Source: Brevinematales bacterium (GTDB lineage: Bacteria; Spirochaetota; Brevinematia; Brevinematales; JAOACQ01). Taken from it: a stretch of 64,000 nucleotides of DNA. Numbering within the stretch: position 1 is the first letter of the stretch; every line of letters starts with the position of its first letter. Location of the stretch: positions 73,108 through 137,107 of the forward strand of contig JBBFLL010000002.1 of the NCBI GenBank assembly GCA_037479045.1. The letters run 5' to 3'. Shown in pieces: positions 1,876-45,753 of the stretch. The position numbers and the translations under genes are program-made. The notes beneath the pieces were generated by a model, which was not told the origin of the DNA, did no database searches, and saw only the letters and a program-made list of their open reading frames with translations.

Positions 1876-1884
1876 AGGCTTTCC

Positions 1885-3117: not shown

Positions 3118-3995
3118 AATCCAATTCTTACTCCTGCATCCACATAAACCGATGATGATAAAACATTCATTCCAAATTCAAGATTTATGTTAAGTAAAGC
3201 AAGCATAATTTCAATTCCACCTGAAAGCACAAGTCCTTGAATTTCTTTACTACTGGAATTAACAGTTTTCTCAATGAGATTTTCAACCTCTAAAAAACTA
3301 TCCATTTTTCCCCACATATAAGTATAGTTTAACCTTGCATAGCTATTTAAGAAGAAAAAGGACTTTTCAAAAATCACTTCTACAGAAGGGCCATGATAAC
3401 TTCCATCAAAACCAAACTTTGCGTTATATTGGTTTCCGTCAATTGAAATTTCCCTGCTTTTACTATAATTTCCAGTCCAGTAATTATAACCCAAGCCAGT
3501 TTTTACTCCTATATAGATAGAGTTTTCTTCAGTAAGTTCATAAAGGATGCTTCCCCCGGCCCCAAGAGTTGTAGGACTAATATTTTCACTTCCCATCCAG
3601 CCCTTCACGTAGGTTGTCAAAAGCCATCTTGAAGGAAACATCAATATGAAATTTCCAGATATTAATGGCCATTTAAGACACGGCATTTCAAAAAGTCTTC
3701 TGTAGTCAAGTAAAGTAAAATTATTATCAAATGTATCAAATAGAGAAGAATTTACTTCACTGTACGAAATATTAAAAGAAAAAGATAAGTTCTCCTCACT
3801 CTGTAAATAAATTGAACCATTCTTTTTTACAGTAAGAATGGATGGGATACTTGCCTGTATAGTAGAATTTAAAGTACTTAAAAAAGAGTCTTTCTCTCCA
3901 CGCAACGTATCTATGTCAGAAGTCCATCCGAAAGGTAGAAAACTTGAAACTAATACTATTGATATAATTATCTTTTTCATAAAATTCCTCCTCAT
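3114..3995 (-). CDS. Secreted protein, putative outer-membrane beta-barrel (family not recognised)
   Basis: 293 aa. Signal peptide MKKIIISIVLVSSFLPFGW. Gly/Tyr/Ser/Asn-rich alternating pattern. 4-nt overlap with the upstream gene. Confidence 0.4.
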   Translation of the reverse strand: MRRNFMKKIIISIVLVSSFLPFGWTSDIDTLRGEKDSFLSTLNSTIQASIPSILTVKKNGSIYLQSEENLSFSFNISYSEVNSSLFDTFDNNFTLLDYRRLFEMPCLKWPLISGNFILMFPSRWLLTTYVKGWMGSENISPTTLGAGGSILYELTEENSIYIGVKTGLGYNYWTGNYSKSREISIDGNQYNAKFGFDGSYHGPSVEVIFEKSFFFLNSYARLNYTYMWGKMDSFLEVENLIEKTVNSSSKEIQGLVLSGGIEIMLALLNINLEFGMNVLSSSVYVDAGVRIGL

Positions 3996-5113
3996 TCCTT
4001 AACTGTCCAGGACATCTGTGGAAATGGTTTGTTATTTACATTTCCAAGATATATTGCCACTGTGATTGCACCACTTTTATTCTGTGCAAGTCCAATATCA
4101 AACCTTAAAATGGTTGCTAAACTTTCCATAATGTATATTCCCAGCAAAGGTGCAACATAAAAGCCATAGGCATAAGAAGGTGTGGTATCATAATTTCCTG
4201 CAAGATTACCATTTATACCGACAAGGAAACCGGGTATCAGTTTGATACTGTATGAGGCCAGATACCAGAATGGCGGTGTATAGAAGTAGAAGCCACCCAT
4301 CGGAGAGTAATATCTGAGTTCGATAGCTGTCCAGCCGACATAATCTCCTACCATAGAAGGTCCACCAATTGAATAAGTGGAAAATTTATAAGGTCTTGGT
4401 ATTGTTCCAATTCCTCCTGTTCCTTTCAAGTAGAAAGAAAGTGTCCACCAACCTCCAAGTGAGAAAAGTAACTGGGATTCAGCTTCCAGACTTGTAAAGT
4501 TTGTTCGTTCCAAAACCCAGTTTTCTGAAATACCGAGAGAGAGATACACACCCTTATGCGGATATGTAGGGACATATCCCTCATACCAGATATCGAAATC
4601 AGAACGCCTCGAGTTAAAAGATAAAGCCGCAGTAGTTTTTACAATTCTGTAGTTGTATTCCTTAAACTCGTTAATATTAGTTAAGAGAAGGTTTTGAATG
4701 TAATTAGCTCCGATGTTTAAGCCACAGTATGAAAGGAAAGTTGAATTTAAAGACATTCCAATGCTGTCATAACTCTGAGGATAGTACAAATAGCTGGCAA
4801 CACCTTCCTTATTTGAAAGGACAGTAGCACTACCAATATAATGCTGTGCATTATAAAACAAATGCAGGTAGGGACCTTCTTTCAGTAGATTGTAAAAACC
4901 CCCATCAATTCCAAATTGAGAATGATACTCCAGAAATTTTTCCACACCGAAAGAAGGTAAATATGAAACTGACAAAAAGCTTTGTGGAACTCTGCTACTT
5001 TCAACTGGTTTTTCTTCTTGATTCGTCAGAGAAAATACTGTGCCATATTCTTGATGTAAAATGAAAATCAAGAATATCAAAAGTATTTTTTTTCTTCTCA
5101 TATTTTTCTCCAC
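3992..5113 (-). CDS. Putative Omp85-like outer-membrane barrel without POTRA domains
   Basis: 373 aa with a signal peptide, aromatic/Gly-rich. The segment YSIGGPSMVGDYVGWTAIELRYYSP resembles the conserved GG...RGY...ELR region of Omp85/'bacterial surface antigen' barrels (memory-based). Confidence 0.4.
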   Translation of the reverse strand: MEKNMRRKKILLIFLIFILHQEYGTVFSLTNQEEKPVESSRVPQSFLSVSYLPSFGVEKFLEYHSQFGIDGGFYNLLKEGPYLHLFYNAQHYIGSATVLSNKEGVASYLYYPQSYDSIGMSLNSTFLSYCGLNIGANYIQNLLLTNINEFKEYNYRIVKTTAALSFNSRRSDFDIWYEGYVPTYPHKGVYLSLGISENWVLERTNFTSLEAESQLLFSLGGWWTLSFYLKGTGGIGTIPRPYKFSTYSIGGPSMVGDYVGWTAIELRYYSPMGGFYFYTPPFWYLASYSIKLIPGFLVGINGNLAGNYDTTPSYAYGFYVAPLLGIYIMESLATILRFDIGLAQNKSGAITVAIYLGNVNNKPFPQMSWTVKE

Positions 5114-5124
5114 TTTTTTATATT

Positions 5125-6078
5125 TTATTCTATCCCAAGTCTTTTAAAACACACTTGCTCGACCCATTCTTTATTAAGCCTTCTTGTCACATCAGACCAG
5201 TTCGTAAATTCTTCATAGGTATCAAGAACCGAAACCTCCGCACTTTCTCTACTTCTTCTTACTACAAGTCTACTTTCTTTATCTATCCAGTATATGCAGA
5301 ATTTGCTAAGCGTTCTACCCATAAGAAGTCTCAAAAGAAAATCTTCTGTATCCATCACTACTTTTATCGTATCATAAGTCTTGTAAGTAGTTTCAATTTT
5401 TTCTTCTTTTTCAATTTTTAGTCTACCAATAACTGGTGTCCTGAGAACATTAGGAGAAACAAATTGAGCCATACCACCCTTTTGAATATCCAGAAAACCA
5501 ATAGGAAAAGACATCGTAGCAGCAACATAGTTGAAAAAAGGTAGATTTTTATCTACTTTTGTCCTCCCTTTTTGGATTTTTGTTTCATATCCGTTCCATA
5601 TACCCCACTCAGATTCATAAATTCCACTTGACTCATCAAAGAATTCATGATGATACATCCATTGGCCAGCACTGTTTTTTGCCCTTCTGTTTGAAAAAAC
5701 AGCGTCGTATTTTATCACTTGAAGTTTCTCAAGATCAATAAGTTCAACGCTATCAAATTTATCAAGACTTTCGGGAAGAAAGGCTTGGGATTTAATGTCT
5801 TTAGCGTAAGAAGTATAATAGAAACTTCTACCATATATTCTAAGATAGCATTTATTATCAGTCTCTTCTTTTATCCATACATAGTGTTGATAACCTATGT
5901 GCATCCCAGCCATATCGTATAAAGAATAACGTATATAGGCTTTAGATGATAATAAGTTTTTATTAATTAGCAATATACCTTCTTTTGAATAAATAAAATT
6001 AGAAAGAAATAGCTGAGTTGAAAAAATAATTGAAAATCCAACAAAATTTTTCAGTTTTTTGATTATCATTATTAACAT
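5125..6078 (-). CDS. Secreted protein, paralog A of a 3-member family (function unknown)
   Basis: 317 aa with an N-terminal signal-like segment. About 90% identical by eye to 12879-13826, including a 173-nt perfect DNA match. C-terminus is NKEWVEQVCFKRLGIE. Confidence 0.75.
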   Translation of the reverse strand: MLIMIIKKLKNFVGFSIIFSTQLFLSNFIYSKEGILLINKNLLSSKAYIRYSLYDMAGMHIGYQHYVWIKEETDNKCYLRIYGRSFYYTSYAKDIKSQAFLPESLDKFDSVELIDLEKLQVIKYDAVFSNRRAKNSAGQWMYHHEFFDESSGIYESEWGIWNGYETKIQKGRTKVDKNLPFFNYVAATMSFPIGFLDIQKGGMAQFVSPNVLRTPVIGRLKIEKEEKIETTYKTYDTIKVVMDTEDFLLRLLMGRTLSKFCIYWIDKESRLVVRRSRESAEVSVLDTYEEFTNWSDVTRRLNKEWVEQVCFKRLGIE

Positions 6079-6133
6079 TCTCCTTTTCTCTAATATGATT
6101 TTTTCAATTACACAAGTTGTTATACAAAAACTT

Positions 6134-7069
6134 TCAATCTACCCCAAGTTTCTTAAAACACACCTGCTCGACCCATTCTTTATTAAGCTTTTCTGCCACA
6201 TCAGACCAGTTAGTAAACTCTTCGTATGCATCAAGAATTAAGTATTCTGAATTATTCTTATTAATTTTAACCACCATTTTTGTGTTTTTATCTATCCAGT
6301 AGATACAAAATTCCCTCGCCCATCTTCCAGCCATCAGACGAAGTAAAAAATCATGTACATCTGTCCCCAGCTTAATCGTATCAAATTCTCCCAGGACTGT
6401 ATTGATTTTTTCCTCTTTTATTATTTTGAAACTTCCAATAACAGACTCTTTAAAGTACTCAGGAAATGCAAATTGAAATTTTCTTTTGCCTGAAAAGTCA
6501 GTAAACCCAACTGGAAATCTCATACTTAATGCCGTGTAGTTTAAAACAGGTAATGATAAATCCACTTTTGTTCTACCTTTAAAAATCTTCATTTCATAAC
6601 CATTCCACATACCATATTCTGTCTCAAAAAAAGAATTTGATATATCTAATCTATCACTTATGTACATATATTGACCTCGACCTATTTTCTCTCTGCTGTT
6701 AGAATAGACTCCTCTCTCTTCTATTACCTGTGATTTTTCCAGATCTATTATGGCAAATGTTTGAAAACCTTCTAATTTCTCAGGCAAAAAGGCGTGTGAT
6801 TTCTTATCTTTTGCATAGGAGGAATAGCAGAAAATATTTTCATATATCTTAAGATAATTTTTCTCGTTTTCTTTTTCTTTTACCCATACATGATGAGCGT
6901 ACCCTGTGAGTTTGCCGCTTAAATCATAGAAGCCATATCTTAAATAAGCTTTCTCGGGAATTGAATCTACATTTAAAAAAGACTGATTTTTGTTGAGTTC
7001 TTGACCGCCAGATCTCTGAAAAAGGAGGATTAAACAGAATGAAAAAAGAAGTAATCTTACTATAAACAT
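6134..7069 (-). CDS. Secreted protein, paralog B of the same family (more divergent)
   Basis: 311 aa. Signal peptide MFIVRLLLFSFCLILLFQRSGG. Alignable end to end with paralogs A and C (YLRYGFYDLSG..., MWNGYEMKI.KGRTKVD, CIYWIDK, NKEWVEQVCFKKLGVD). Confidence 0.75.
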   Translation of the reverse strand: MFIVRLLLFSFCLILLFQRSGGQELNKNQSFLNVDSIPEKAYLRYGFYDLSGKLTGYAHHVWVKEKENEKNYLKIYENIFCYSSYAKDKKSHAFLPEKLEGFQTFAIIDLEKSQVIEERGVYSNSREKIGRGQYMYISDRLDISNSFFETEYGMWNGYEMKIFKGRTKVDLSLPVLNYTALSMRFPVGFTDFSGKRKFQFAFPEYFKESVIGSFKIIKEEKINTVLGEFDTIKLGTDVHDFLLRLMAGRWAREFCIYWIDKNTKMVVKINKNNSEYLILDAYEEFTNWSDVAEKLNKEWVEQVCFKKLGVD

Positions 7070-7119
7070 TTTCCTGATTTCTCCTTAAATATTTTAAATA
7101 ATCGATTATTTTTTTATTT

Positions 7120-7128
7120 ATTATAACA
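7120..7128 (-). promoter_or_regulatory. Possible extended -10 element (TGTTATAAT on minus strand) in the 193-nt gap upstream of paralog B
   Basis: Revcomp of 7120-7128 is TGTTATAAT. No good -35. This is the largest intergenic gap inside the cluster downstream of its 16164-16342 leader. Confidence 0.3.
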
Positions 7129-7262
7129 GAGCAAGAGATATATTCAGCATCATTTTTAACGACCTTAAAAATACCAATCCTAATATATCTTTACAAAACT
7201 CACATAAGTTCTTTGTATAAAGTATTAACACAATAAACCAGAATTTTCAACTAAAAACTATA

Positions 7263-8687
7263 TTACTTTTCTTTGAGTGCTGGTTTAATATTGTAAGTTC
7301 TTTCTGGAAGATAAAATCCAGAACCAGCAGGAAAATAATAAACATTTGTAATTTTGCCATTTTCATCAAAATAAAGTTGCTCCTTTGAAATATCAGATAA
7401 AGGAGCAAAAATCTCTACATCAGGTAGTTCTTTATGTATCATATTAGCAATATTAGCCCCTTTCTCTCCTCCTTTCCCTGCCGAGCAACTGGATATAACT
7501 ATAACACTATTGGTTGAAAATAACCCTTTGATAGATTTTAATTTTTCTCCATCATTTAAATCCAAAATTTCTTCATCTTTGTATTGATATTCTGTATTAC
7601 TTAACCTGAACATATCAATATTAGTTCCAGCTTTCCAGAATACTATTCTTCCCTCTCTACCATGACCATTTATCAACAATACATCAATCGACTGAAATAA
7701 TGCAGCATCTTTAATTGAATTAACAAATTCTATATCAGATTTTACCTGATAATAACTAACCCTGTACCCATTACTTGAAAGCTCCTCTACATTATGGACT
7801 CTAAAATCTATATCTGCTCTATTTCCAACAAATCCCGTATCAATAATTACTGAAAGTGGTTGAAAATTATCTTTCTGAGGAGATATTCTTTGTCTTGTTG
7901 CAATATCAAAGATTCTCTTATTATAAAATTTGAATGGATTAATAAAACCAAGTTTTGAAATAAGTTTCTCAAAATCATTTAGATTTTCCTTATTTACCGA
8001 AGTCAAAAGTTTCTTCTCAAACGAAGGAAAATAGATAACGAAAGGATTTACAGTAAAAGCTTTATTTACAAAGTCTTTATCTTTCAAGAGAGTTGAGGAA
8101 GCATACCGAAGATACCACCAATCTTCTTTCAAAAGGACAAGAAATAGATTCTTATCTTTCTTTAAAGTAGATTTTTCTTTATTGCCAGCAAAGTCAATTA
8201 TAGCTGGATTATACTTTATACATTCATATAAAAACTTCTTGCTATTTTTGAAACTTTCATCTGCATACTTCAAAGCAACAGGATTATTTTTAACCGCCTC
8301 CAGAACTATTTCCTTGTTTCTCCTTAAACTAAAATCTGCATATTCAAGTGAACTCCCTTCATTTTTTACAGCAAGAAATACTATTTCCTTGTCCTTTTTC
8401 AAGTTTGAAGATGCAAATTTCAGTGCCTTGCCGTTTTTGTTTACTGCAGTTTTTACTATCTCCTTATTACTTTGCCAGTTAGAACCTAAAAAACGAAGAC
8501 TCATAGGATCAATATCAATAACATTTAAAATAAAATCCTTGTCTTTTTTAAAATCTTCAGGAATATCCAAAACTGAAATTTCTCCGTTAGACAATGCCTT
8601 TATTAAGCTTTCTTTGTCAGTATTTTGCTCAGTACTCCAGATTAATCTTCCACATATAAGCAGAAGTATAAAAAAGATTACTTTCAT
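7263..8687 (-). CDS. Secreted DUF4116-repeat protein with a C-terminal domain carrying a His...Cys dyad (possible clan-CD/CHAT-like peptidase)
   Basis: 474 aa with a signal peptide. At least 4 repeats of the pattern KDKEIVxxAVKNNGxALKYAxxxLK, typical of DUF4116. The C-terminal ~190 aa contains LLINGHGREG and VIVISSCSAGKGG. Confidence 0.5.
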   Translation of the reverse strand: MKVIFFILLLICGRLIWSTEQNTDKESLIKALSNGEISVLDIPEDFKKDKDFILNVIDIDPMSLRFLGSNWQSNKEIVKTAVNKNGKALKFASSNLKKDKEIVFLAVKNEGSSLEYADFSLRRNKEIVLEAVKNNPVALKYADESFKNSKKFLYECIKYNPAIIDFAGNKEKSTLKKDKNLFLVLLKEDWWYLRYASSTLLKDKDFVNKAFTVNPFVIYFPSFEKKLLTSVNKENLNDFEKLISKLGFINPFKFYNKRIFDIATRQRISPQKDNFQPLSVIIDTGFVGNRADIDFRVHNVEELSSNGYRVSYYQVKSDIEFVNSIKDAALFQSIDVLLINGHGREGRIVFWKAGTNIDMFRLSNTEYQYKDEEILDLNDGEKLKSIKGLFSTNSVIVISSCSAGKGGEKGANIANMIHKELPDVEIFAPLSDISKEQLYFDENGKITNVYYFPAGSGFYLPERTYNIKPALKEK

Positions 8688-9943
8688 ATTGCTTTCTCAA
8701 CCTCTTTGTTTTTTTCACCGAAAACTAATTTAAAAAACTTTAAAAGTAAAAATATTAGATATGAAAATCCCCCAATCCATATTCCTGAATTTCTTAGAAA
8801 TATATTAAAAGTCTTTATATTTTCACCTTTTATTCCCGAAGATACAAGTGTTAATAATGGTTTCCATATGTAACTATCCAGATTCAATGTAATCTTAATC
8901 CAATTAATGTAAAATCCACTGAGAAAAGAAAACATAAAAAAGTAAAAAATGAAAAGATAAATAATTACAAATCTTTGAATCGATGGGGGATAAGAAGAAA
9001 AGGGAGATTTTTTCTCCTTTTTAACTATACTTTTTATCCAGTTTTTAATTTTTGTTTGCAAGCTTACAATTCCAAGAATATCGCTTAAAAACCAGTAGCC
9101 ATCCATTTTTAAAAATGGATTGAAAGTAGAAATGCTGAAAAGTGGAAAGAGTATTAAATAATCCTTTATTGCACCTGATTGGGTCAGAAAAAATGTAAAG
9201 AACAATGGAAGGAGAAAAATGAGTTCGAAATAAAAACCAGCAATTGAAACAATAGCTCTTTCCTTGCGAGGTAAATTCCAGGATTCATGAGTGTCTGTGT
9301 ACATTACAAACATAAAATAGTAAAATCCAAAGCCTATCCCATCTTTTGAAGGAACATTGTATTTTGCCAAAGCCACTGCATGACCCATTTCGTGAAAAAC
9401 TGTTTTGAAATATGGATAGATTACAAAGATTATAAAGTAATCCCATATCCCATAATACTTGATTGTTATATGTTTTGAAAAAAAAGAAAAATAGAATAAA
9501 AAAGCTTCGAGCAGACAAAATAAAGTTGTTACTCCAATTACAACTGGTTTTTTAAGAAAAAATTCAAAAATCTTCAAAAATCCAGCAAGTTTTGAAATAT
9601 CAAAAAGCTTTATTCTTAACCAGAAGTTTTCCATTCTGTTTCTAAAAGTAAAGTTTTCTTCTTTCTCTTTGAAATTGAAAGTTAAAAGTTTTTTTTGTTC
9701 TAAAAGATTTAAAACATTCTGTACAGACTTTTCATCTATTCCTAACTCTTCTCCTATTACCTTTCGAATTTCAGTGACTACCCCTCCCTCTTTTTTTTCT
9801 AAAAGGCTGATAAATTTTCTTACATTGCTATTTATTTCTACGTCACCAAGAGAAAAAGTAACTCTATATCTGATTTCATTTGAACTGGTATCGAGTGGAG
9901 AGATTTTGTAATTCCTTAAATAAACTTTATCATCATCCCTCAT
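8684..9943 (-). CDS. Polytopic membrane zinc metalloprotease (HExxH, M50-like) with an N-terminal PqqD/RRE-like domain
   Basis: 419 aa. FHEMGHAVAL (HExxH), then NPFLKMDGYWFLSD (M50-type N..P...DG motif), and multiple TM helices. N-terminal ~90 aa (NVRKFISLLEKKEGGVVTEIRKVIGEELGIDEKSVQNVLNLLEQKKLL) matches the PqqD-like winged-helix pattern. 4-nt overlap with the downstream gene. Confidence 0.6.
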   Translation of the reverse strand: MRDDDKVYLRNYKISPLDTSSNEIRYRVTFSLGDVEINSNVRKFISLLEKKEGGVVTEIRKVIGEELGIDEKSVQNVLNLLEQKKLLTFNFKEKEENFTFRNRMENFWLRIKLFDISKLAGFLKIFEFFLKKPVVIGVTTLFCLLEAFLFYFSFFSKHITIKYYGIWDYFIIFVIYPYFKTVFHEMGHAVALAKYNVPSKDGIGFGFYYFMFVMYTDTHESWNLPRKERAIVSIAGFYFELIFLLPLFFTFFLTQSGAIKDYLILFPLFSISTFNPFLKMDGYWFLSDILGIVSLQTKIKNWIKSIVKKEKKSPFSSYPPSIQRFVIIYLFIFYFFMFSFLSGFYINWIKITLNLDSYIWKPLLTLVSSGIKGENIKTFNIFLRNSGIWIGGFSYLIFLLLKFFKLVFGEKNKEVEKAI

Positions 9944-11234
9944 TTTTCAATCCTTCAGGTACGATAATCGCATAATTTACAAGATTTTTAAGTATCTCTA
10001 CCAGCTTTTTTTCTGGAATACGCTTTTTCGTTTTAGGACTTACTATTCCTCTCTTTTTTATATCCTCAATAACCATTTTTACACTCTTTTCGGTTTTCAC
10101 AGTAAGAAAAGGATAGAGATTTATTAAGTATAAAGTGTTTTTTTCTTTTCTAAAAAAAACATATGAATGTAGAAAAAATTTATTTTTAATTTCAACTTCA
10201 TAATTCTTCACTTTTTGTTGCCAAATTTCCAATAGTTCCATATCAAAAAATCTGAAAAAGAAAAAAACTTCTTTCAATTGCCTTCCATCCCATCCCAAAC
10301 ACTTTTTTCTAAGATTTTCATATAATAAGTTATATATAGTATTGCATAGTAACTGCCCTGTTTCGTTAAAGCTTAACATAGGTTTAAATTCAAAAATTTC
10401 TCCAATACTAAATAGGATTTTACCATTAAACTTTGGAAGTGTCATTATTGGTACTACAGGAGAACACGTCATTAAATGTAATATTGGAAAAATTGAAGTA
10501 ATAACTAAAGACTTTTTCCCATTCATAGTATAAACAAAAAATTTTGCTCTATCTCTATTATAATCACAGAATGCTTTTTTTATATACTCTTGAATCTTAA
10601 CATCGTTATTATCTAAGTTAATTAAGGGTAAATCTCCAAAAATAACAATAGGAAATCCGTTTCTTAATGATTGCAACATATTAAGAGGAAAATTTTTTTT
10701 ATCTTCCAAAAAACAAAAAGAAATAGTTCCAGAAAAATCAGGAAAATTAAAAAATATTCTATCAGACTCCAACTTCACATACTTTTTGTATTTTTCATAA
10801 TGCTTCTGTCTAAAGAGACTTAAAAAATATTTATACACATCACCAGATCTTAGGGCAAGTACATTTATATAACTTATATTCAACTTTTTAATTAGATAAA
10901 AGACGCTTTCCAACATCACTTCACTATGAAAGATAAAAAAGATAGCTGTTTTAAATTCATTTAGTTTTTTGATTGTATCATTTTGAAATATGCAAGTATC
11001 ACTTTCTATCAAAAACCATCGTATTCTTAAATTTGTTAATTTATTTAAAGTTTTAGAAAAACATTTGATTTTTCTATTTTGACTATTAATTATTTTAACA
11101 TTATTAAAAACTCTAAAAAGAAAACTTGCAAACCATAAGTCTTTCAAGCTTTTCTCCGTGTTTTCACTGATATAGTAATATATATAGGTAAAAATAAAAA
11201 AAATTGTGTAGATAATTCTTTTCAGGAACAACAT
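9933..11234 (-). CDS. Hypothetical protein (433 aa), N-terminal TM; possible acyltransferase-like enzyme, unassigned
   Basis: Long ORF with an 11-nt overlap with the downstream protease gene. No motif recognised with confidence. The FHSEVMLE segment only loosely recalls the HX4(D/E) motif of LpxL-type acyltransferases. The C-terminal ~60 aa is again winged-helix/PqqD-like by eye. Confidence 0.55.
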   Translation of the reverse strand: MLFLKRIIYTIFFIFTYIYYYISENTEKSLKDLWFASFLFRVFNNVKIINSQNRKIKCFSKTLNKLTNLRIRWFLIESDTCIFQNDTIKKLNEFKTAIFFIFHSEVMLESVFYLIKKLNISYINVLALRSGDVYKYFLSLFRQKHYEKYKKYVKLESDRIFFNFPDFSGTISFCFLEDKKNFPLNMLQSLRNGFPIVIFGDLPLINLDNNDVKIQEYIKKAFCDYNRDRAKFFVYTMNGKKSLVITSIFPILHLMTCSPVVPIMTLPKFNGKILFSIGEIFEFKPMLSFNETGQLLCNTIYNLLYENLRKKCLGWDGRQLKEVFFFFRFFDMELLEIWQQKVKNYEVEIKNKFFLHSYVFFRKEKNTLYLINLYPFLTVKTEKSVKMVIEDIKKRGIVSPKTKKRIPEKKLVEILKNLVNYAIIVPEGLKNEG

Positions 11235-11341
11235 ATTTCTTCTCCATACTCTACCATTTCCTTAACAAGTTAAACCACACTCTTTTAAAGTTGAAATAAT
11301 AATTTTGAAAATAAAATAATTTTACATTTATATGATAATTA

Positions 11342-12565
11342 TTAGTTAAGATTTTTAAGCAATATAACTGCGTTACTTCCTCCAAATGCAAAGGCATTTA
11401 CCAATGCACAATTTACTTCATAATCTATAGACTCGTTGGCAACATAATCTAAATCACACTCTGGATCAGGTTCATCTAAGTTTATAGTTGGATGTAATTT
11501 ATTTTCTTTCATCTGAATTATAGCTGCTATAGTTGAAATTACCCCACTTGCCCCCATTGTATGTCCAATCATAGATTTTACCGAATTAACCTTTAATTTA
11601 TATGCTTTGTCTTTAAACATATTTTTGATGGCAATTGTCTCTTCAAAATCGTTCACTGGAGTCCCTGTTCCATGTGCTTGAATATAATTTACTTTTTCAA
11701 ACAATTCAGGATAATCCTGAAAACTTTTCTCTATAGCTTTTTCTATTGATTTGTGATTTGTATGAGTGAGATGGGTTGTATCATTTGAATACCCATAACC
11801 ACAAACTTCTGCCAGCGGAATTAAACCAAATTTTTCACAAATCTCTTCTTTTGTAATTATTACTGCTCCAGCACCTTCTCCCAGAACAGTGCCCTTTCGT
11901 CGTTTACTAAAAGGAGAAGGAACTTTGGTCGGATTTTCATTATCCTTTTCGAGAACATTCAACTTATTCCATCCTATTATACTTACTGGGAAAAGAGGTG
12001 TATCCGTTCCTCCAGCAACGACCAGATCAAGAACCCCCCATTTTATAAATAGATACCCCAAGCCTATAGCATGTAAAGAAGAAGAACAAGCTGTATCTAC
12101 AGTAATTGAAAAATCTGAAAGTTTCCATTTTTCCGAAACAAGAGCCGTAGAAGAACACCTCATACTCCGGACTAAAAATAAGGGATTAATAAAATTCTCT
12201 TGTCCCTTATTATAATATCCATAGGTCTTATCCAACGTTTCATTCCCATTGTAACAGGTTCCAATAAAAATTCCTTTTTTTAGTTCTATTCTTTCAAAAA
12301 TAGGATTTAAATTATAAGCCTTTATTGCTTCATTTACAGAATAATCCAGAAAATAAAATGCTCTATCTTCTCGCATCTTTTCAATACCAATTTTTTTTAA
12401 ATCTTTATTTTTGACTTCTCCACCTATTTTCACAGGAATATTAGAATAATCATCATTTTCTAGTTTCGAAATTTGAGAAATTCCAGAAAGAATAGAACGC
12501 GAAAACTCATTGATTCCAAAAGAAGCCGGGCTTAAAACACCCATACCAACGACAAATATTTTCAT
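11342..12565 (-). CDS. Beta-ketoacyl-ACP synthase, FabF/KAS-II-like (cluster-dedicated)
   Basis: 407 aa. Cys-His-His triad motifs DTACSSSLHAIG, AHGTGTPVND and IGHTMGASG, with the C-terminal NAFAFGGSNA. Confidence 0.85.
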   Translation of the reverse strand: MKIFVVGMGVLSPASFGINEFSRSILSGISQISKLENDDYSNIPVKIGGEVKNKDLKKIGIEKMREDRAFYFLDYSVNEAIKAYNLNPIFERIELKKGIFIGTCYNGNETLDKTYGYYNKGQENFINPLFLVRSMRCSSTALVSEKWKLSDFSITVDTACSSSLHAIGLGYLFIKWGVLDLVVAGGTDTPLFPVSIIGWNKLNVLEKDNENPTKVPSPFSKRRKGTVLGEGAGAVIITKEEICEKFGLIPLAEVCGYGYSNDTTHLTHTNHKSIEKAIEKSFQDYPELFEKVNYIQAHGTGTPVNDFEETIAIKNMFKDKAYKLKVNSVKSMIGHTMGASGVISTIAAIIQMKENKLHPTINLDEPDPECDLDYVANESIDYEVNCALVNAFAFGGSNAVILLKNLN

Positions 12566-12570
12566 AATAA

Positions 12571-12822
12571 TTACCCTTGGAAGTTTTCAAGGTATTCCCG
12601 GATTTTTGATATGGTTAGTAAACCAGATGTCTCTTCAGGAGGAAAGTTTATATTAAATTTTTTCTCAATCTCAAATAGAATTTCAAGAAGAGATAATGAA
12701 TCAGCTTTGAGGTCTTCAACAAAATGAGTATTTTCACTGATATCCGCCGGCGATATCTTTAAAATTTCAGCAATTATATTTTTGATTTCCATAATATCCT
12801 TTTCTGAAATTTGCATTTTCAA
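12571..12822 (-). CDS. Acyl carrier protein (cluster-dedicated)
   Basis: 83 aa. Phosphopantetheine-attachment motif LKADSLSLLEI. Lies 5 nt upstream of the KS gene. Confidence 0.8.
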   Translation of the reverse strand: MKMQISEKDIMEIKNIIAEILKISPADISENTHFVEDLKADSLSLLEILFEIEKKFNINFPPEETSGLLTISKIREYLENFQG

Positions 12823-12878
12823 GTTCCTCCTTTTTTACAAAAGTAAAAATATTTCTCTAATTTATCTAATTTATTTTC

Positions 12879-13826
12879 CTACTCGACTCCAAGTCTTTTA
12901 AAACACACCTGCTCAACCCATTCCTTGTTAAGTTTTTCTGCTACTTCAGACCAGTTTGTAAATTCTTCGTAGGTGTCAAGAATCGAAACCTCCGCACTTT
13001 CTCTACTCCTTTTTACTACAAGTCTACTTTCTTTATCTATCCAGTATATGCAGAATTTGCTAAGCGTTCTACCCATAAGAAGTCTCAAAAGAAAATCTTC
13101 TGTATCCATCACTACTTTTATCGTATCATAAGTCTTGTAAGTAGTTTCAATTTTTTCTTCTTTTTCAATTTTTAGTCTACCAATAACCGGTGCCCTGAGA
13201 ATATTAGGAGAAACAAACTGAGCCATACCACCCTTTTGAATATCCAAAAAGCCCACAGGAAAGGACATTGTACCAGCAACATAGTTAAAGAAAGGAAGAT
13301 TTGTATCAACTTTCGTCCTACCCTTTTGGACTTTTGTTTCATATCCATTCCATGTTCCCCACACAGATTCATAAATTCCATTTGACTCATCAAAGGATTC
13401 ATGATGATACATCCATTGGCCAGCACTATTATTTGCCCTTTTGTTTGAAAAAACAGCATCGTATTTTATCACTTGAAGTTTCTCAAGATCAATAAGTTCA
13501 ACGCTATCAAATTTATCAAGACTTTCTGGAAGGAAAGCTTGTAATTTAACATCTTTCGCGTAAGAAGTATAATAGAAACTCCTCCCATATATTTTAAGAT
13601 AGCATTTATTATCAGTTTCCTCTTTTATCCATACATAGTGTTGATAACCCATGTGCTTTCCAGCCATATCGTATAAAGAATAGCGTATATAGGCTTTCAA
13701 AGGTATTAAGTTTGGATTAAGAAACAATTTCTTTATCGATTGAGAATAAGTTGAATTGATAAGAAAAATGTAATTAATCATTACGCAGCATATCAGAAAA
13801 TTAGCCCCTCTTTTTTTAACCAACAT
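12879..13826 (-). CDS. Secreted protein, paralog C of the 3-member family
   Basis: 315 aa. Near-identical to paralog A except for the N-terminal signal region. First gene after the candidate precursor. Confidence 0.75.
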   Translation of the reverse strand: MLVKKRGANFLICCVMINYIFLINSTYSQSIKKLFLNPNLIPLKAYIRYSLYDMAGKHMGYQHYVWIKEETDNKCYLKIYGRSFYYTSYAKDVKLQAFLPESLDKFDSVELIDLEKLQVIKYDAVFSNKRANNSAGQWMYHHESFDESNGIYESVWGTWNGYETKVQKGRTKVDTNLPFFNYVAGTMSFPVGFLDIQKGGMAQFVSPNILRAPVIGRLKIEKEEKIETTYKTYDTIKVVMDTEDFLLRLLMGRTLSKFCIYWIDKESRLVVKRSRESAEVSILDTYEEFTNWSEVAEKLNKEWVEQVCFKRLGVE

Positions 13827-13953: not shown

Positions 13954-14055
13954 CTACTCAGCTGCACAACAGTTACCACAACCAGCGCCACCAAAATCTA
14001 CCTTTTCTTCTACTTCTTCAACCTCAAATACTAAATAATCTTGTCTCTCATTCAT
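13954..14055 (-). CDS. Candidate RiPP precursor peptide, 33 aa: MNERQDYLVFEVEEVEEKVDFGGAGCGNCCAAE
   Basis: Hand-translated; too short for the ORF track. The ATG (14055-14053) overlaps the TGA (14054-14052) of the upstream gene as ATGA. GGAGGG lies 5 nt upstream. Acidic leader, Gly-Gly at residues 22-23, and a 10-residue core with 3 Cys. Sits immediately downstream of the rSAM and pseudo-rSAM genes. Confidence 0.65.
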   Translation of the reverse strand: MNERQDYLVFEVEEVEEKVDFGGAGCGNCCAAE

Positions 14056-15020
14056 GGTATCCCTCCTTTCTTATAGATTTCTCCCCTTTCCTCTTTTTTT
14101 ATTACTTTTAAGTATTTTTTTCTTAATAAGCATTCATTTTTTTTGCTACTATTAAGACTTAAACACTTAAGACCATAACAAAACAGAGAAAACTTACATT
14201 CTTTAAGATTATTACACTTCTTTTTCACTGGTTCATAAGAGAGAAGTCTTTCAGGACAATAGTCCTTTTTCCCTATATCATCATAACATACCTTCCTATA
14301 TATAAAAGGACAGATTAGAAAAACTTTATCTTTCAACACATTTTCAAAATTCTCGAAAAACAAATCGCCTTTTCCCCAGCACCCATCCTTAAAGTCTAAA
14401 AAATCACCAATGTTTTCTGGTTTATCAGAAAGAATAACCAGCCTTATATTTGAAAATAAATCTTCCATGCCAAACGGGTTAAAGTTCTCTATTTCATTTT
14501 CGTTTACAGAAAGCCACAAAGCACCTTTTTGAAAACCATACGAATTCACTTTTTTTGCAATTTCAAGCGTTAATTCAAGGTTTTCAAAATCACTCCAGAA
14601 ATTTACTTTTTCAATATTTTCTTCTTTTTTAATTTTTTCAACCCAATTTTTAAGTTTACTTTCATTCCAGCTTACATTTTTTCTTTCTCTTTTTAAATAC
14701 CCCGGCTTTCCAACAAGAAGAAAAACTTCCTTGTAGCTGGTTTTAAGTTTGTTAACTTTGCTTTCAAGAAAAGTCAGAATTTCCCTTTTTTCCTCTTCTT
14801 CGCTGTAGCAGGTTATATACCATTTTTTAAGCCAGTCTGAAATCTCTTTTTCAGAAAAAGGATATCTATTATCAGGCATAAAACTTTCATTTTTATCCTG
14901 GATTTCTTTAAGTGATTTCCATTTTGATAAATCAATTTCTTCAAGTTCACCTGTTATTAGACTCAGAATGAAATACCTTTCATCTTTATTAATTAAAAAA
15001 CAACCTTCTGCAATTCTCAT
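14052..15020 (-). CDS. Maturase-like accessory protein lacking the radical SAM CxxxCxxC motif, with a Cys-rich (9 Cys) SPASM-like C-terminus ('pseudo-rSAM')
   Basis: 322 aa with no CxxxCxxC anywhere. The last ~110 aa contain 9 Cys, including CNNLKECKFSLFCYGLKC. Lies 3 nt downstream of the rSAM gene. Confidence 0.55.
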   Translation of the reverse strand: MRIAEGCFLINKDERYFILSLITGELEEIDLSKWKSLKEIQDKNESFMPDNRYPFSEKEISDWLKKWYITCYSEEEEKREILTFLESKVNKLKTSYKEVFLLVGKPGYLKRERKNVSWNESKLKNWVEKIKKEENIEKVNFWSDFENLELTLEIAKKVNSYGFQKGALWLSVNENEIENFNPFGMEDLFSNIRLVILSDKPENIGDFLDFKDGCWGKGDLFFENFENVLKDKVFLICPFIYRKVCYDDIGKKDYCPERLLSYEPVKKKCNNLKECKFSLFCYGLKCLSLNSSKKNECLLRKKYLKVIKKEERGEIYKKGGIP

Positions 15021-15023
15021 ATT

Positions 15024-16163
15024 CTACAAAGGAATAAGACGGGAGTAGAAAAATCCAATGCCTTTTTCGGTAAGTCTTCCTATTGCTCTTTCCTTTTCAA
15101 TTGCCACAGTACATTTAGTAACAAACCCGTCTGGGCGGATTAAAAATGAGTTTCTTATCTCTGCATCACAATATTTATATTCTCTTTTTAAACCTAAAGG
15201 ACTACTAAAACCTCTCTTTGACAATTCATTTAGAAGGAATTTTTCTACACTAGAATTAATTTTGTAAGTACAGTTACTTTCATTATCTTTATTCCCATCC
15301 CAGTCTTCAGTACACGAAGAATATATATCTCTAAAGTAAATATCAACTCTATCCTTAAATTTCTTGAAGATGTCAAAGATTGAAAGAATTTCATTTAGTT
15401 CAGTTTCTTCTCCGCTGTGGATGTGAATTCTAACTGCTATCTTATTCAAAGGATTTGCTTCTAAGAAATTAGTCACGTTTTTTATAATTGTATCAAAGGT
15501 AGGCTGTCCCCCAACAAGAGTTCTCATTTTGTTATGTCTTGTCTTACCACCATCAAGTGTAAAGTGAACATCTCTTAATTGAATTTTATCGAAAATATTG
15601 ATTATTTTATCATTGAGGAGAACTGCATTTGTAGTTATTCCAGTATTAAATTTTATCTCCCATTTTTTTGAAATATCTACAGCAAAAGTACCTATCTCTT
15701 CAATTATTTCAGGCATCAAGAGTGGCTCACCACCGAACCAGCTTATTCCAAGAAAATTAAGGGTCTTAGCTCTGTTTTCAATTAACTTACAGATATTTTT
15801 GACAACATCATATGACATTCTCTCCTCAGGATGAATCTCATAACAATACGGACAACGACAGTTACAATTCAGGGTGGGAACTATTGTAAGGATCAGCTTA
15901 TCTATCCTGTAAATATCCTGATTGCGTAACTCCAGAAGAAGATTATATTCATCAATGTTATCTGGAATGAGTAATTTACCATCAACAAGTTTTTTATAAA
16001 TCTTTGCGTCTTTATTGGAAACTACATCTTCCGGATTACTTAAAATTTTTATTACATCTTCTTTCCATTCGAGTGGAAAAGATGTATAGCTATTCCCAAA
16101 CCAGGAATACAGGACATACTCATTCTCTGTTAAGAAATCGACAAAATAATTTGTTGACTTCAT
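15024..16163 (-). CDS. Radical SAM peptide-maturase-type enzyme (anSME/SPASM-twitch family-like)
   Basis: 379 aa. CNCRCPYC contains CX3CX2C. Also WFGGEPLL (GGE motif), ITTNAVLL and HFTLDG. The C-terminal region has 4 Cys, including YCDAEIRNSFLIRPDGFVTKC, typical of an auxiliary-cluster domain. SD GGGGGA precedes the ATG. Confidence 0.8.
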   Translation of the reverse strand: MKSTNYFVDFLTENEYVLYSWFGNSYTSFPLEWKEDVIKILSNPEDVVSNKDAKIYKKLVDGKLLIPDNIDEYNLLLELRNQDIYRIDKLILTIVPTLNCNCRCPYCYEIHPEERMSYDVVKNICKLIENRAKTLNFLGISWFGGEPLLMPEIIEEIGTFAVDISKKWEIKFNTGITTNAVLLNDKIINIFDKIQLRDVHFTLDGGKTRHNKMRTLVGGQPTFDTIIKNVTNFLEANPLNKIAVRIHIHSGEETELNEILSIFDIFKKFKDRVDIYFRDIYSSCTEDWDGNKDNESNCTYKINSSVEKFLLNELSKRGFSSPLGLKREYKYCDAEIRNSFLIRPDGFVTKCTVAIEKERAIGRLTEKGIGFFYSRLIPL

Positions 16164-16311
16164 TCCCCCGACCTTTTTTAATTCTTAAGTTAATATTCTT
16201 TATTTCAAACTTTTTATATTGTTTTAAATTAAATTTTTACACCTTTTACTAAAACTACCAGAAATTTTTCCTCAATTTTGAAATTTTTTATAAAAATTTT
16301 TTTGTTTTATC

Positions 16312-16342
16312 ATTATACATCTGGGGGGGGGTGGATTGTCAA
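16312..16342 (-). promoter_or_regulatory. Sigma70-type promoter for the rSAM operon: TTGACA-N19-TATAAT, with the homopolymer tract inside the spacer
   Basis: Revcomp of 16337-16342 (tgtcaa) is TTGACA. Revcomp of 16312-16317 (attata) is TATAAT. The spacer 16318-16336 is 19 nt and includes nine consecutive C on this strand. The rSAM ATG is ~150 nt downstream. Confidence 0.6.
16323..16331. repeat. Homopolymeric G9/C9 tract
   Basis: Nine consecutive G on the + strand in an otherwise extremely AT-rich intergenic region. Confidence 0.95.
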
Positions 16343-16545
16343 GGTTTTTTGGAAAAATTTAAAAATTTTTTATAATTTTTATATTTGAAAAAGTAATTAA
16401 ATTGTTTTATATTAAAATAATTATAAAAAGGAGAATAAATTTAATTTATTATTTTTAAAAAGATTAAATATCTTATAGAGAGAATAGGATATCTTGACTT
16501 AGTTAGATTTAATTTTACCTTTTTAATTTACAGAATAATTGTTAA

Positions 16546-16710
16546 AAAACCCAATACAGATTTTCTGACTACATAACGGCAAATCTTTACGGAAGATTTG
16601 TGTTTAACCAGTATGCAGATGTTGCCCCACTCGAAAATAGTGTTCGCAAAACCTACTTCGATCCAGGTTATGGACTACAGATTGGGATTGACTTAAGAAT
16701 TACCTTCTAA
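16546..16710 (+). pseudogene. Relic of the C-terminal ~54 codons of an outer-membrane beta-barrel protein gene (no start, no N-terminal part)
   Basis: Frame open only from 16546. Translates to KTQYRFSDYITANLYGRFVFNQYADVAPLENSVRKTYFDPGYGLQIGIDLRITF*, with alternating-hydrophobic terminal strands ending in Phe, an OMP C-terminal signature. Locally higher GC than the flanking spacer. The stop codon overlaps the prfA stop convergently. Confidence 0.45.
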
Positions 16711-45651: not shown

Positions 45652-45753
45652 TAACCCCCTCCAAAATTTTAACCTTAGACTGAAAAAATTTTTTAAATAA
45701 AAAAGAAATTTTTAACTTAATCAAACACATTATAAAATTCTTATTAAATAATG

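What the first reader, a model, noticed from the sequence alone, without database searches (positions are those of the whole stretch)
16312..16342. Consensus promoter whose 19-nt spacer contains a C9/G9 homopolymer: candidate phase-variable switch for the cluster
On the minus strand there is a perfect -35 (TTGACA, revcomp of 16337-16342) and a perfect -10 (TATAAT, revcomp of 16312-16317). They are separated by 19 nt (16318-16336), and 9 of those nucleotides are a C run (G9 on +, 16323-16331). Two perfect hexamers in the correct order ~150 nt upstream of the first gene of a 16-kb co-directional cluster are unlikely to be accidental. A 9-nt G/C run in a genome this AT-rich is also very improbable by chance. 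The optimal sigma70 spacing is 17 nt. Slipped-strand gain or loss of 1-2 nt in the tract would therefore tune or switch promoter strength. This mechanism is established for poly-G/C or dinucleotide tracts between -35 and -10, for example in Neisseria porA/opc and Haemophilus hif. Poly-G tracts upstream of Treponema pallidum tpr genes also modulate transcription. The implication is that production of the modified peptide and its envelope module is stochastically ON/OFF or graded in the population.
Basis: partly seen in the sequence, partly recalled or inferred. Interest (0 to 1): 0.8.

Follow-up and report, generated by a model that had tools for sequence, protein, structure and literature searches.

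The report
Mutable poly-C tract inside operon promoter
A perfect bacterial promoter in front of a peptide-antibiotic-like gene cluster of a hot-spring spirochete has a run of nine C's that pushes its two halves 19 bases apart, and other natural populations of the same species carry seven C's, which gives the ideal 17, so this run probably acts as a mutation-prone dial for the cluster's expression, a known kind of switch in a new setting.

Summary
On the minus strand, TTGACA (16342-16337) and TATAAT (16317-16312) are separated by 19 nt, 9 of which are C (G9 on +, 16323-16331). The site lies 148 nt upstream of the first gene of a radical-SAM peptide (RiPP) cluster.

- The run is the only G/C run of 7 or more in the 64 kb (expected about 0.04).
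- The organism, an uncultured hot-spring Brevinematia spirochete, clearly uses sigma-70-type promoters. Seven of its nine best intergenic promoter matches have 17-nt spacers.
- Among near-identical assemblies of this species (about 99.9% identity in the cluster region), seven carry C9 and three carry C7. The tract is the only indel near the promoter, and C7 gives the optimal 17-nt spacer. Three further contigs break at the tract.

Tract-length polymorphism that moves the promoter between poor and optimal geometry is therefore real. What is not shown:
- High-frequency reversible switching. C7 is linked to one SNP, and no C8 or C10 was seen.
- The transcription start site.
- An effect on expression.

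Verdict: a credible, partly validated promoter-spacer contingency tract of the porA / tp0126 kind. It is a new member of a known kind, in a free-living thermophile, controlling a RiPP operon.

The parts
16337..16342 (-). -35 hexamer TTGACA (6/6)
   Evidence: Read directly. Conserved in all 10 assemblies that span it. It is retained even where an IS sits immediately upstream.
16318..16336 (-). Promoter spacer, 19 nt in the window (ATCCA-C9-AGATG) and 17 nt in the C7 alleles
   Evidence: No dyad symmetry in the spacer or core promoter.
16323..16331 (-). Homopolymeric C9 tract (G9 on the + strand); the polymorphic element, C9 or C7 in natural populations
   Evidence: The only G/C run of 7 or more in the window. 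Assemblies with C9: window, L059, L063, L064, L076, L068/L082, L077. Assemblies with C7: L066/L071, L070, L069. Contigs L001, L065 and L075 break at its edges.
16312..16317 (-). -10 hexamer TATAAT (6/6)
   Evidence: Invariant in all 13 contigs that reach it.
16304..16306 (-). Predicted transcription start (A residues 6-8 nt downstream of the -10); inferred, not mapped
   Evidence: Inferred from sigma-70 promoter geometry. No experimental data.
16164..16303 (-). Predicted AT-rich 5' UTR of about 140 nt, with a Shine-Dalgarno-like AAGGT/GGGGG at 16165-16175
   Evidence: No Rfam family. Folding is no better than shuffles, z = +0.85. The only other sigma-70-like candidate on this strand in the intergenic region is the weak TTGAAA-16-AAGAAT at 16208-16181, 9/12.
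15024..16163 (-). First gene of the operon: a radical SAM/SPASM peptide maturase. In this window it lacks the last 67 codons through a 201-nt deletion
   Evidence: Pfam and NCBIfam hits. The 446-aa allele is P0001/P0032. Deletion junction.
14052..15020 (-). Second gene: a 322-aa Cys-rich protein of unknown family, starting 3 nt after the rSAM stop codon
13954..14055 (-). Candidate RiPP precursor peptide MNERQDYLVFEVEEVEEKVDFGGAGCGNCCAAE (acidic leader, GG motif, Cys-rich core); overlaps the previous gene by 4 nt
   Evidence: Called as a 33-aa gene in eight other assemblies.
655..13826 (-). Rest of the co-directional cluster. It encodes a 315-aa unknown protein, an ACP, a FabF-like ketosynthase, a 433-aa unknown protein, an M50/daptide-like intramembrane protease, a DUF4116 protein, several unknown proteins and two FtsX/MacB-type permeases
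   Evidence: No promoter-like site scoring 11/12 or better on the minus strand inside it.
16546..16710 (+). Remnant (last 54 codons) of a large outer-membrane-like gene. It marks the upstream edge, at 16547, of the DNA that carries the promoter and cluster
   Evidence: tblastn and blastn against L007. Relatives L007 and L078-L081 have the intact 1578-1862-aa gene.
16343..16347 (-). Site where a 1.44-kb rve-type IS is inserted in another lineage (AAACC, directly upstream of the -35)
   Evidence: L068/L082 and L077.

Best explanation
This is most likely the main sigma-70-type promoter of the RiPP operon (rSAM maturase, 322-aa partner, precursor peptide and downstream genes). Its strength is set by the length of a slippage-prone poly-C tract in the spacer. 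With C9 the two perfect hexamers are 19 nt apart, out of register for RNA polymerase holoenzyme, so the promoter is weak. With C7 they are 17 nt apart, which gives a full-consensus and presumably very strong promoter. C8 would be intermediate.

Slipped-strand mispairing during replication adds or removes C's, producing heritable expression variants of a costly or conditionally useful cluster.

Shown:
- the anatomy of the site;
- the rarity of the tract;
- use of 17-nt sigma-70 promoters by this organism;
- natural C7 and C9 alleles on otherwise near-identical DNA.

Inferred:
- that this is the TSS-defining promoter;
- that C9 is low and C7 is high;
- that the changes arise by slippage and are reversible.

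C9 occurs in all but one haplotype and C7 is linked to a derived SNP. This suggests a slow, lineage-level rheostat rather than a fast ON/OFF flip.
For: 1. Perfect hexamers, a 19-nt spacer and C9 are present as described.
2. The tract is the only G/C run of 7 or more in 64 kb (expected about 0.04), and there is none in about 70 kb of further loci scanned.
3. The organism uses canonical promoters. Of 17 sites matching 11/12 or better, 9 lie in the 8% of DNA that is noncoding, directly upstream of co-directional genes (P about 2e-6). Seven of those 9 have a 17-nt spacer (P about 1e-4). This site stands out with 19.
4. Length polymorphism exists:
   - C7: JGI 3300007072 (L066/L071), ERZ27245800 (L070), ERZ511474 (L069).
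   - C9: window, GCA_049968535.1, GCA_964632035.1, ERR1612258, GCA_900118445.1, GCA_017880035.1, SRR13170868.
   - In L066 the tract is the only gap in 3.5 kb aligned at 99.8-99.9% identity. The many A/T runs match, which argues against a general homopolymer sequencing error.
5. Three contigs from other assemblies end exactly at the tract.
6. No competing strong promoter lies on this strand in the intergenic region. No riboswitch or structured leader was found.
7. Homologous clusters in other taxa also begin with the rSAM gene and have a sigma-70-like site 75-100 nt upstream.
8. There is a precedent in spirochetes. The T. pallidum tp0126 poly-G lies between -35 and -10 and is optimal at a 17-nt spacing. 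porA works the same way (PMC7864442).
Against: - Only two lengths were seen, and no C8 or C10.
- All three C7 contigs share the SNP L059:9721 G>T. Two of them have the same contig end and are probably from the same sample. C7 may therefore be a single fixed event in one hot-spring lineage.
- C9 is unchanged in a strain with three nearby substitutions or indels (L063) and in a lineage whose flanking genes are 4% diverged (L082). This is more stable than classical contingency tracts.
- Single A-run indels are about as frequent in the same few kb, so the tract is not demonstrably more mutable than other homopolymers.
- The TSS is unknown. A 140-nt leader is longer than at the other good promoters in the window, where the -10 lies 7-78 nt from the start codon.
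- No terminator-like site was found between prfA and the cluster on this strand, so read-through could supply transcription independent of this promoter.
Confidence: 0.55

Rival explanations
1. It is a functional promoter but not a phase-variable one. C9 and C7 are two stable regulatory alleles, with a single rare 2-nt contraction acting as a promoter-up mutation in one hot-spring lineage. The mutation rate is too low to generate within-population heterogeneity.
For: C7 is strictly linked to SNP 9721T, and C9 is found on every other haplotype, including diverged ones. No intermediate C8 was seen. A run of nine is at the lower limit of tracts that are usually counted as hypermutable: PMC7864442 uses a threshold of 8 or more, and 4 of its 17 tracts barely varied.
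Against: A 2-nt change in a 9-nt run is the only indel at the promoter, on a background with 1-4 SNPs per 3 kb. This implies a locus-specific rate far above the substitution rate. Three assemblies break exactly at the tract, as expected if reads disagree there.
Confidence: 0.25
2. The hexamers are a chance match in AT-rich DNA and the tract polymorphism is neutral. The operon is transcribed from another start, or by read-through from prfA.
For: TATAAT is common (177 copies in the window), and promoter-like matches as a whole are not enriched over shuffles (61 against 55.5). No terminator was detected downstream of prfA on this strand. The leader would be unusually long for this genome.
Against: A perfect pair is expected only 0.29 times per window on both strands, and here it lies in the 8% of DNA that is noncoding, in the correct orientation ahead of an operon. 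It is the only TTGACA in the intergenic region. The core is preserved although an IS landed immediately upstream of it. The alternative allele restores exactly 17 nt.
Confidence: 0.12
3. The 19-nt spacer is the designed state. This would be a MerR-type (or otherwise activator-dependent) promoter that needs a DNA-distorting regulator, and C7 is a constitutive escape mutant.
For: Perfect hexamers with a 19-20-bp spacer are the hallmark of MerR-family promoters (established knowledge). C9 is the majority allele.
Against: There is no dyad symmetry in or around the spacer; a C9 centre cannot be palindromic. No MerR-family or HTH domain was found in the 29 window proteins tested, which include the 14 cluster ORFs, 5 upstream flanking ORFs and 10 other ORFs of up to 238 aa.
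Confidence: 0.05
4. The tract length differences are sequencing or assembly artefacts at a poly-G/C run.
For: Homopolymers are error-prone. One C7 contig has only 2.6x coverage (L069). Contig breaks at the tract may simply reflect poor read quality there.
Against: C7 is given by three contigs from three assembly records. The contig names (NODE_, k141_) suggest at least two different assemblers, and one is JGI's own record. C9 appears in seven assemblies. All neighbouring A/T runs of 5-8 nt agree between the C7 and C9 contigs. A 9-nt run is shorter than any assembly k-mer, so spanning reads are needed.
Confidence: 0.03

Closest known systems
Treponema pallidum tp0126 promoter (poly-G between -35 and -10)
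   Same: It belongs to the same phylum (Spirochaetota). A G/C homopolymer of about 8-10 nt lies inside the spacer of a sigma-70 promoter, and transcription is optimal when the tract brings the spacing to 17 nt (PMC7864442).
   Different: There, length heterogeneity within isolates and length-dependent reporter activity were measured; here only between-assembly alleles are known. The target there is an outer-membrane protein of an obligate pathogen. Here it is a RiPP biosynthetic operon of a free-living hot-spring thermophile with about 30% GC, in which such tracts are otherwise absent.
Neisseria meningitidis porA promoter (poly-G spacer tract)
   Same: The homopolymer sits strictly between the hexamers, and changes of 1-2 nt shift the spacing around 17 and grade expression (as summarised in PMC7864442).
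   Different: porA has imperfect hexamers and a well-documented high switching rate. Here both hexamers are perfect and the common allele is the too-long state (19) rather than a too-short one.
N. meningitidis opc, Bordetella fim and T. pallidum tprE/G/J/L promoter tracts
   Same: All are poly-C or poly-G tracts in promoter regions that modulate transcription by length.
   Different: In those cases the tract overlaps the -35 or -10, or lies between an activator site and the -10. The mechanism is therefore not pure hexamer spacing (PMC7864442; the Bordetella example is from general knowledge).
Phase-variable bacteriocin-like peptide genes of the Neisseria gonorrhoeae nap island
   Same: Homopolymer-length variation governs production of secreted or lytic peptides from a horizontally acquired island, and this is interpreted as bet-hedging (PMC11798529).
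   Different: Those tracts lie inside the ORFs and act by translational frameshift, not in a promoter spacer. The peptides are not rSAM-modified RiPPs.
MerR-family 19-20-bp spacer promoters
   Same: They share near-consensus hexamers with an over-long 19-nt spacer.
   Different: They require a palindromic operator in the spacer and a MerR regulator, and neither was found here.

Membership tests
Promoter-spacer simple-sequence-repeat phase variation (porA / tp0126 type) | A homopolymer or short repeat (about 8 units or more) lies between recognisable -35 and -10 hexamers of a sigma-70 promoter upstream of a gene. | tested here: met
   C9 lies within the 19-nt spacer of TTGACA/TATAAT, 148 nt upstream of the operon's first ATG.
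Promoter-spacer simple-sequence-repeat phase variation (porA / tp0126 type) | The host RNA polymerase uses -35/-10 promoters with an optimum spacing of about 17 nt. | tested here: met
   Nine of 17 sites matching 11/12 or better lie in intergenic DNA ahead of genes, and 7 of those 9 have a 17-nt spacer. This is sequence statistics only.
Promoter-spacer simple-sequence-repeat phase variation (porA / tp0126 type) | Tract length differs among strains or isolates while the flanks stay the same. | tested here: met
   C7 appears in 3 assemblies and C9 in 7, with identical flanks and 99.8-99.9% identity overall.
Promoter-spacer simple-sequence-repeat phase variation (porA / tp0126 type) | The observed lengths move the spacing between optimal and sub-optimal values. 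| tested here: met
   C7 gives 17 nt and C9 gives 19 nt. No alternative -35 is in register at C9: the shifted hexamers match 1-2 of 6 positions (by inspection).
Promoter-spacer simple-sequence-repeat phase variation (porA / tp0126 type) | Tract length is heterogeneous within a clonal population, with reversible switching at high frequency. | not testable with these tools
   No reads are available. The indirect evidence is ambiguous. Contigs break at the tract in 3 assemblies, but C7 is linked to a SNP.
Promoter-spacer simple-sequence-repeat phase variation (porA / tp0126 type) | Transcript or reporter level depends on tract length, and the TSS lies downstream of the -10. | not testable with these tools
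   This needs 5' RACE or dRNA-seq and reporter fusions.
MerR-type over-spaced promoter | The spacer between the hexamers is 19-20 bp. | tested here: met
   The spacer is 19 nt in the majority allele.
MerR-type over-spaced promoter | A dyad-symmetric operator is centred in the spacer. | tested here: not met
   No inverted repeat of 6 nt or more touches 16312-16342.
MerR-type over-spaced promoter | A MerR-family regulator is encoded nearby. | tested here: not met
   No MerR or HTH domain was found in the 29 ORFs tested: the 14 cluster ORFs, 5 upstream flanking ORFs and 10 other window ORFs of up to 238 aa. The rest of the genome has not been seen.
Radical SAM/SPASM RiPP gene cluster (the regulated target) | An rSAM maturase with a SPASM C-terminal Cys motif lies next to a short precursor peptide with a leader and a Cys-rich core. 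| tested here: inconclusive
   The maturase matches the Clo7bot, Cys-rich and CefB models at E values of 1e-43 to 1e-47, but below their trusted cut-offs. A 33-aa precursor-like ORF with a GG motif is present. In this window the SPASM C-terminus is deleted, whereas other strains have it intact.

The most novel reading that the evidence does not exclude
This may be a true contingency locus in a free-living, thermophilic, uncultured spirochete. On this reading, a slippage-driven promoter-spacer switch toggles a whole rSAM-RiPP/lipid-tailoring operon between C7 (ON) and C9 (OFF), as bet-hedging over a costly or self-harming product.

The cluster and its switch would have spread recently between 96%-ANI lineages by recombination. 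In long-term OFF (C9) backgrounds the cluster would be decaying: the SPASM deletion, the IS insertions and the frameshifts are all seen on contigs carrying C9 or beginning at or just after the tract, and none on a C7 contig.
Probability: 0.3. Interest if true: 0.7.

Novelty: new member of a known kind. Interest (0 to 1): 0.55.

Why it matters
Phase-variable promoters are known almost only from host-adapted pathogens and from surface antigens. If tract length is shown to control expression here, three things would follow. The mechanism would extend to a free-living hot-spring thermophile and to a secondary-metabolite (RiPP) operon. There would be a natural pair of alleles, C7 and C9, ready for reporter tests. 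It would also mean that whether such clusters are expressed in metagenome-derived genomes can depend on a 2-nt difference that assemblies often lose, since three contigs break at the tract. The locus also illustrates, in one species, several ways of modulating or losing a dispensable cluster: tract change, IS insertion next to the -35, a domain deletion and frameshifts.

Tried and rejected
1. The genome-contig scan with the rSAM protein found no relative. The second scan, with RF1, gave the taxon (Brevinematales). The only close relative it returned, L007, has an intact large OMP gene at this locus instead of the cluster, so the promoter cannot be compared between species. Three further relatives found via the look-up of encoding contigs show the same arrangement.
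2. Homologous clusters at 42-48% rSAM identity (L060, L061, L062) have promoter-like sites but no G/C tract, so the tract is species-specific.
3. Rfam scans of the window and of the leader found nothing. The leader does not fold better than shuffles, so a riboswitch or attenuator reading was rejected.
4. The MerR-type reading was rejected: no dyad and no regulator.
5. I tried to read within-sample heterogeneity from where contigs break. L065 and L075 start with exactly nine C's, and L001 starts just after the tract. These patterns do not fit a simple C7/C9 de Bruijn branch and cannot be interpreted without reads.
6. The second hit of the metagenome pattern scan (L067) is an unrelated contig with the same hexamer flanks and a 17-nt non-repetitive spacer. 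I judged it a chance match of promoter-consensus DNA.
7. A first multiple alignment was spoiled by one wrongly oriented sequence and was replaced by pairwise variant calling.

Full report
**1. Observation**

Reading both strands confirms every coordinate in the finding.
- The minus strand reads ccTTGACAatccaCCCCCCCCCagatgTATAATgat.
- The -35 hexamer is at 16342-16337 and the -10 hexamer is at 16317-16312.
- The spacer (16318-16336) is 19 nt, and the C9 tract (G9 on +) is at 16323-16331.
- There is no TGn extended -10.
- The next minus-strand ORF starts at 16163, so 148 nt separate the -10 from the ATG.

Chance estimates:
- A perfect hexamer pair with 15-20 nt between occurs twice in the window, against 0.29 expected from shuffles.
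- The run is the only G/C homopolymer of 7 or more in the 64 kb, against a first-order Markov expectation of about 0.04 for runs of 9 or more on both strands.
- No further run of 7 or more occurs in the other loci scanned (about 70 kb), which comprise relatives and two homologous clusters.

**2. Organism and target**

RF1 (prfA, 16707-17768, minus) is 96% identical to that of a Brevinematales MAG. The cluster proteins are named Brevinematia or Brevinematales by NCBI. A FlaA flagellar sheath protein is present. One sample that contains the species is the Dewar Creek DC9 hot spring, at 64.7 C and pH 7.94 (PMC8098120).

The genes downstream of the promoter are, in order:
- a radical SAM/SPASM peptide maturase;
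- a 322-aa Cys-rich protein;
- a 33-aa precursor-like ORF, MNERQDYLVFEVEEVEEKVDFGGAGCGNCCAAE;
- an ACP;
- a FabF-like ketosynthase;
- an M50/daptide-like intramembrane protease;
- a DUF4116 protein;
- unknown proteins and FtsX/MacB permeases.

All are on the minus strand down to 655. The first three genes are separated by 3 nt or overlap by 4 nt, so they at least are co-transcribed.

**3. Is it a promoter in this organism?**

I scored the window for sites matching the two hexamers at 11/12 or better, with spacers of 15-20 nt.
- Nine of the 17 sites fall in the 8% of DNA that is noncoding, directly upstream of co-directional ORFs (binomial P about 2e-6).
- Seven of these nine have a 17-nt spacer (P about 1e-4).
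- The coding-region hits have scattered spacings.

The organism therefore uses canonical sigma-70 promoters with a 17-nt optimum, and the site under study stands out by having 19. The only other 12/12 site (45757-45729, minus) has a 17-nt spacer and lies about 78 nt ahead of a 480-aa gene.

In the 543-nt intergenic region the only other sigma-70-like candidate on the minus strand is a 9/12 match that overlaps the ribosome-binding region. The leader has no Rfam match and no significant structure. Homologous clusters in other taxa (42-48% rSAM identity) also start with the rSAM gene and have a sigma-70-like site 75-100 nt upstream.

**4. The decisive comparison: tract length in other assemblies of the same species**

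Exact-protein look-ups and one metagenome pattern scan recovered 13 further contigs that are 99.6-100% identical to the window across the cluster's 5' end.

Assemblies that span the promoter with C9:
- the window;
- L059 (GCA_049968535.1);
- L063 (GCA_964632035.1);
- L064 (ERR1612258);
- L076 (GCA_900118445.1);
- L068/L082 (GCA_017880035.1);
- L077 (SRR13170868).

Assemblies that span the promoter with C7:
- L066/L071 (JGI 3300007072);
- L070 (ERZ27245800);
- L069 (ERZ511474).

C7 gives TTGACA-17 nt-TATAAT, the full consensus. In L066 the 2-nt tract difference is the only gap in 3.5 kb of alignment, and every neighbouring A/T run agrees. This argues against a generic homopolymer error. Three further contigs end at the tract: L065 and L075 begin with exactly nine C's, and L001 begins with the base after the tract.

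**5. Limits of that evidence**

- Variant calling against L059 shows that all three C7 contigs share one SNP, 9721 G>T (W126L in the 322-aa gene), which no C9 contig has.
- L066 and L070 share contig ends and are probably the same sample. L069 has one extra SNP.
- C9 persists in L063, which has three changes within 160 nt (an A>T next to the tract, A7>A8 in the leader, and C>T in the SD region).
- C9 also persists in L082, whose flanking housekeeping genes are 4% diverged.
- By parsimony C9 is ancestral among the sampled copies and C7 is a derived contraction in one lineage.
- No C8 or C10 was found.
- Single A-run indels occur in the same few kb (L063, L068, L075), so the C tract is not demonstrably more mutable than other homopolymers.

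The data therefore establish a natural polymorphism with an obvious predicted effect on the promoter. They do not establish rapid reversible switching.

**6. Context of the locus**

Relatives (L007, L078-L081) have an intact 1578-1862-aa outer-membrane-like gene convergent with prfA. The window keeps only its last 54 codons (16546-16710, +), and homology stops at 16547. The AT-rich 383 nt that carry the promoter, together with the cluster, therefore replaced most of that gene.

L082 is identical to the window from 14069 to about 17000 and then 4% diverged. The cluster's 5' end, with its promoter, has therefore recently moved between lineages by recombination.

The locus is also a hot spot of lesions:
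- a 201-nt deletion removes the SPASM Cys motif of the maturase in the window and in L001;
- a 1.44-kb rve IS is inserted at 16343-16347, immediately upstream of the -35, in L082 and L077;
- L082 also has a frameshift in the 322-aa gene and an IS1595 transposase downstream;
- L075 has another frameshift.

All of these lesions lie on contigs that carry C9 or that begin at or just after the tract (L001, L075), so the tract state is not known for every one. The three C7 contigs are intact over the region covered. This fits relaxed selection on a weakly expressed cluster, but the numbers are small.

**7. Mechanism and rivals**

The best-supported reading is that this is the operon's promoter, and that tract length sets hexamer spacing and hence strength: C9 weak, C7 strong, with slippage generating the variants. 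I give this a confidence of 0.55.

Rivals:
- Stable alleles rather than a switch (0.25).
- Chance hexamers with a neutral polymorphism, and transcription from elsewhere or by prfA read-through (0.12). No terminator-like site was found on this strand between prfA and the cluster.
- A MerR-type activator-dependent 19-nt promoter (0.05). There is no dyad in the spacer and no MerR or HTH protein among the 29 ORFs tested.
- An assembly artefact (0.03).

**8. Comparison with what is known**

The anatomy is that of the porA and T. pallidum tp0126 promoters. In tp0126 the poly-G lies between the -35 and -10 and transcription is optimal at a 17-nt spacing (PMC7864442). Four of the six defining features of that class were tested here and met. 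The two functional ones, within-population heterogeneity and length-dependent transcription, cannot be tested with these tools.

Homopolymer control of bacteriocin-like peptides is known from the gonococcal nap island, but there the tracts lie inside the ORFs (PMC11798529).

I therefore file this as a new member of a known kind. It is unusual for its host (a free-living hot-spring thermophile with about 30% GC and otherwise no G/C tracts) and for its target (a RiPP operon).

Noticed in passing
window 15024-15030 (deletion junction) within rSAM gene 15024-16163 (-): The window and L001 (SRR33387333) carry a 201-nt deletion. It removes the last 67 codons of the radical SAM maturase, including the CKDCKFLPYCWGQC...C SPASM motif. 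Ten other contigs (L059, L063-L066, L068-L070, L075-L077) encode the full 446-aa protein. The maturase is probably inactive in this strain.
   Followed up: yes
window 16546-16710 (+); junction at 16547: The last 54 codons of a 1578-1862-aa outer-membrane-like gene remain here. The gene is intact, and convergent with prfA, in related Brevinematales (L007, L078-L081). The RiPP cluster and its promoter replaced the rest of it. Contig L002 of another assembly ends exactly at 16547.
   Followed up: partly
window 16343-16347; L082:6427-7869: In GCA_017880035.1 and SRR13170868 a 1.44-kb IS with an rve-family transposase is inserted directly upstream of the -35 hexamer (junction AAACC). It removes the A/T-rich upstream region from the promoter. 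The same genome (GCA_017880035.1) has a frameshifted 322-aa gene and an IS1595-type transposase further downstream.
   Followed up: partly
window 14069-17000 versus beyond 17000; L082: L082 has no substitutions against the window (one 1-nt A-run indel, plus the IS and the 201-nt indel) from 14069 to about 17000, inside prfA. It is about 4% diverged from there to 22770. This is a sharp recombination boundary and indicates recent transfer of the cluster's 5' end between lineages.
   Followed up: partly
L059:10094 and 10221 (window about 14270 and about 14143, in the 322-aa gene): Single-base indels in A5 and A8 runs truncate the 322-aa protein to 256 aa (L068) and 298 aa (L075). They could be real inactivating variants or assembly errors.
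   Followed up: no
window 12879-13826 (-) and 5125-6078 (-): Two paralogous genes of unknown function (315 and 317 aa) lie within the same cluster and share about 91% nucleotide identity over 832 nt.
   Followed up: no
L060:5880-5907: A homologous cluster from a different organism with about 50% GC (rSAM 48% identical) has TTGAAA-A5T9GG-TATAAT about 95 nt upstream of its rSAM gene. This is also a promoter-like site whose 16-nt spacer is almost entirely homopolymer.
   Followed up: no
L067:927-957: An unrelated 1-kb metagenome contig carries TTGACAATCCA-ctcgcaca-GATGTATAATGA. It has the same 23 flanking bases with a 17-nt non-repetitive spacer, between a divergent gene that was not annotated here and a gene beginning MKKYISLLLAL. 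This is probably a chance match of consensus promoter DNA.
   Followed up: partly
window 45729-45757 (-): This is the only other 12/12 consensus promoter in the window (17-nt spacer). It overlaps the end of a pyruvate-kinase-C-domain ORF and lies about 78 nt upstream of a 480-aa gene.
   Followed up: partly
window 38262-39111 (+): An adjacent nucleotidyltransferase and HEPN gene pair (a toxin-antitoxin-like module) lies in the lowest-GC part of the window (24-25% GC).
   Followed up: no
window 13954-14055 (-): A 33-aa ORF, MNERQDYLVFEVEEVEEKVDFGGAGCGNCCAAE, has an acidic leader, a GG motif and a Cys-rich 10-residue core. It is the likely RiPP precursor and is called as a gene in eight other assemblies.
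   Followed up: partly
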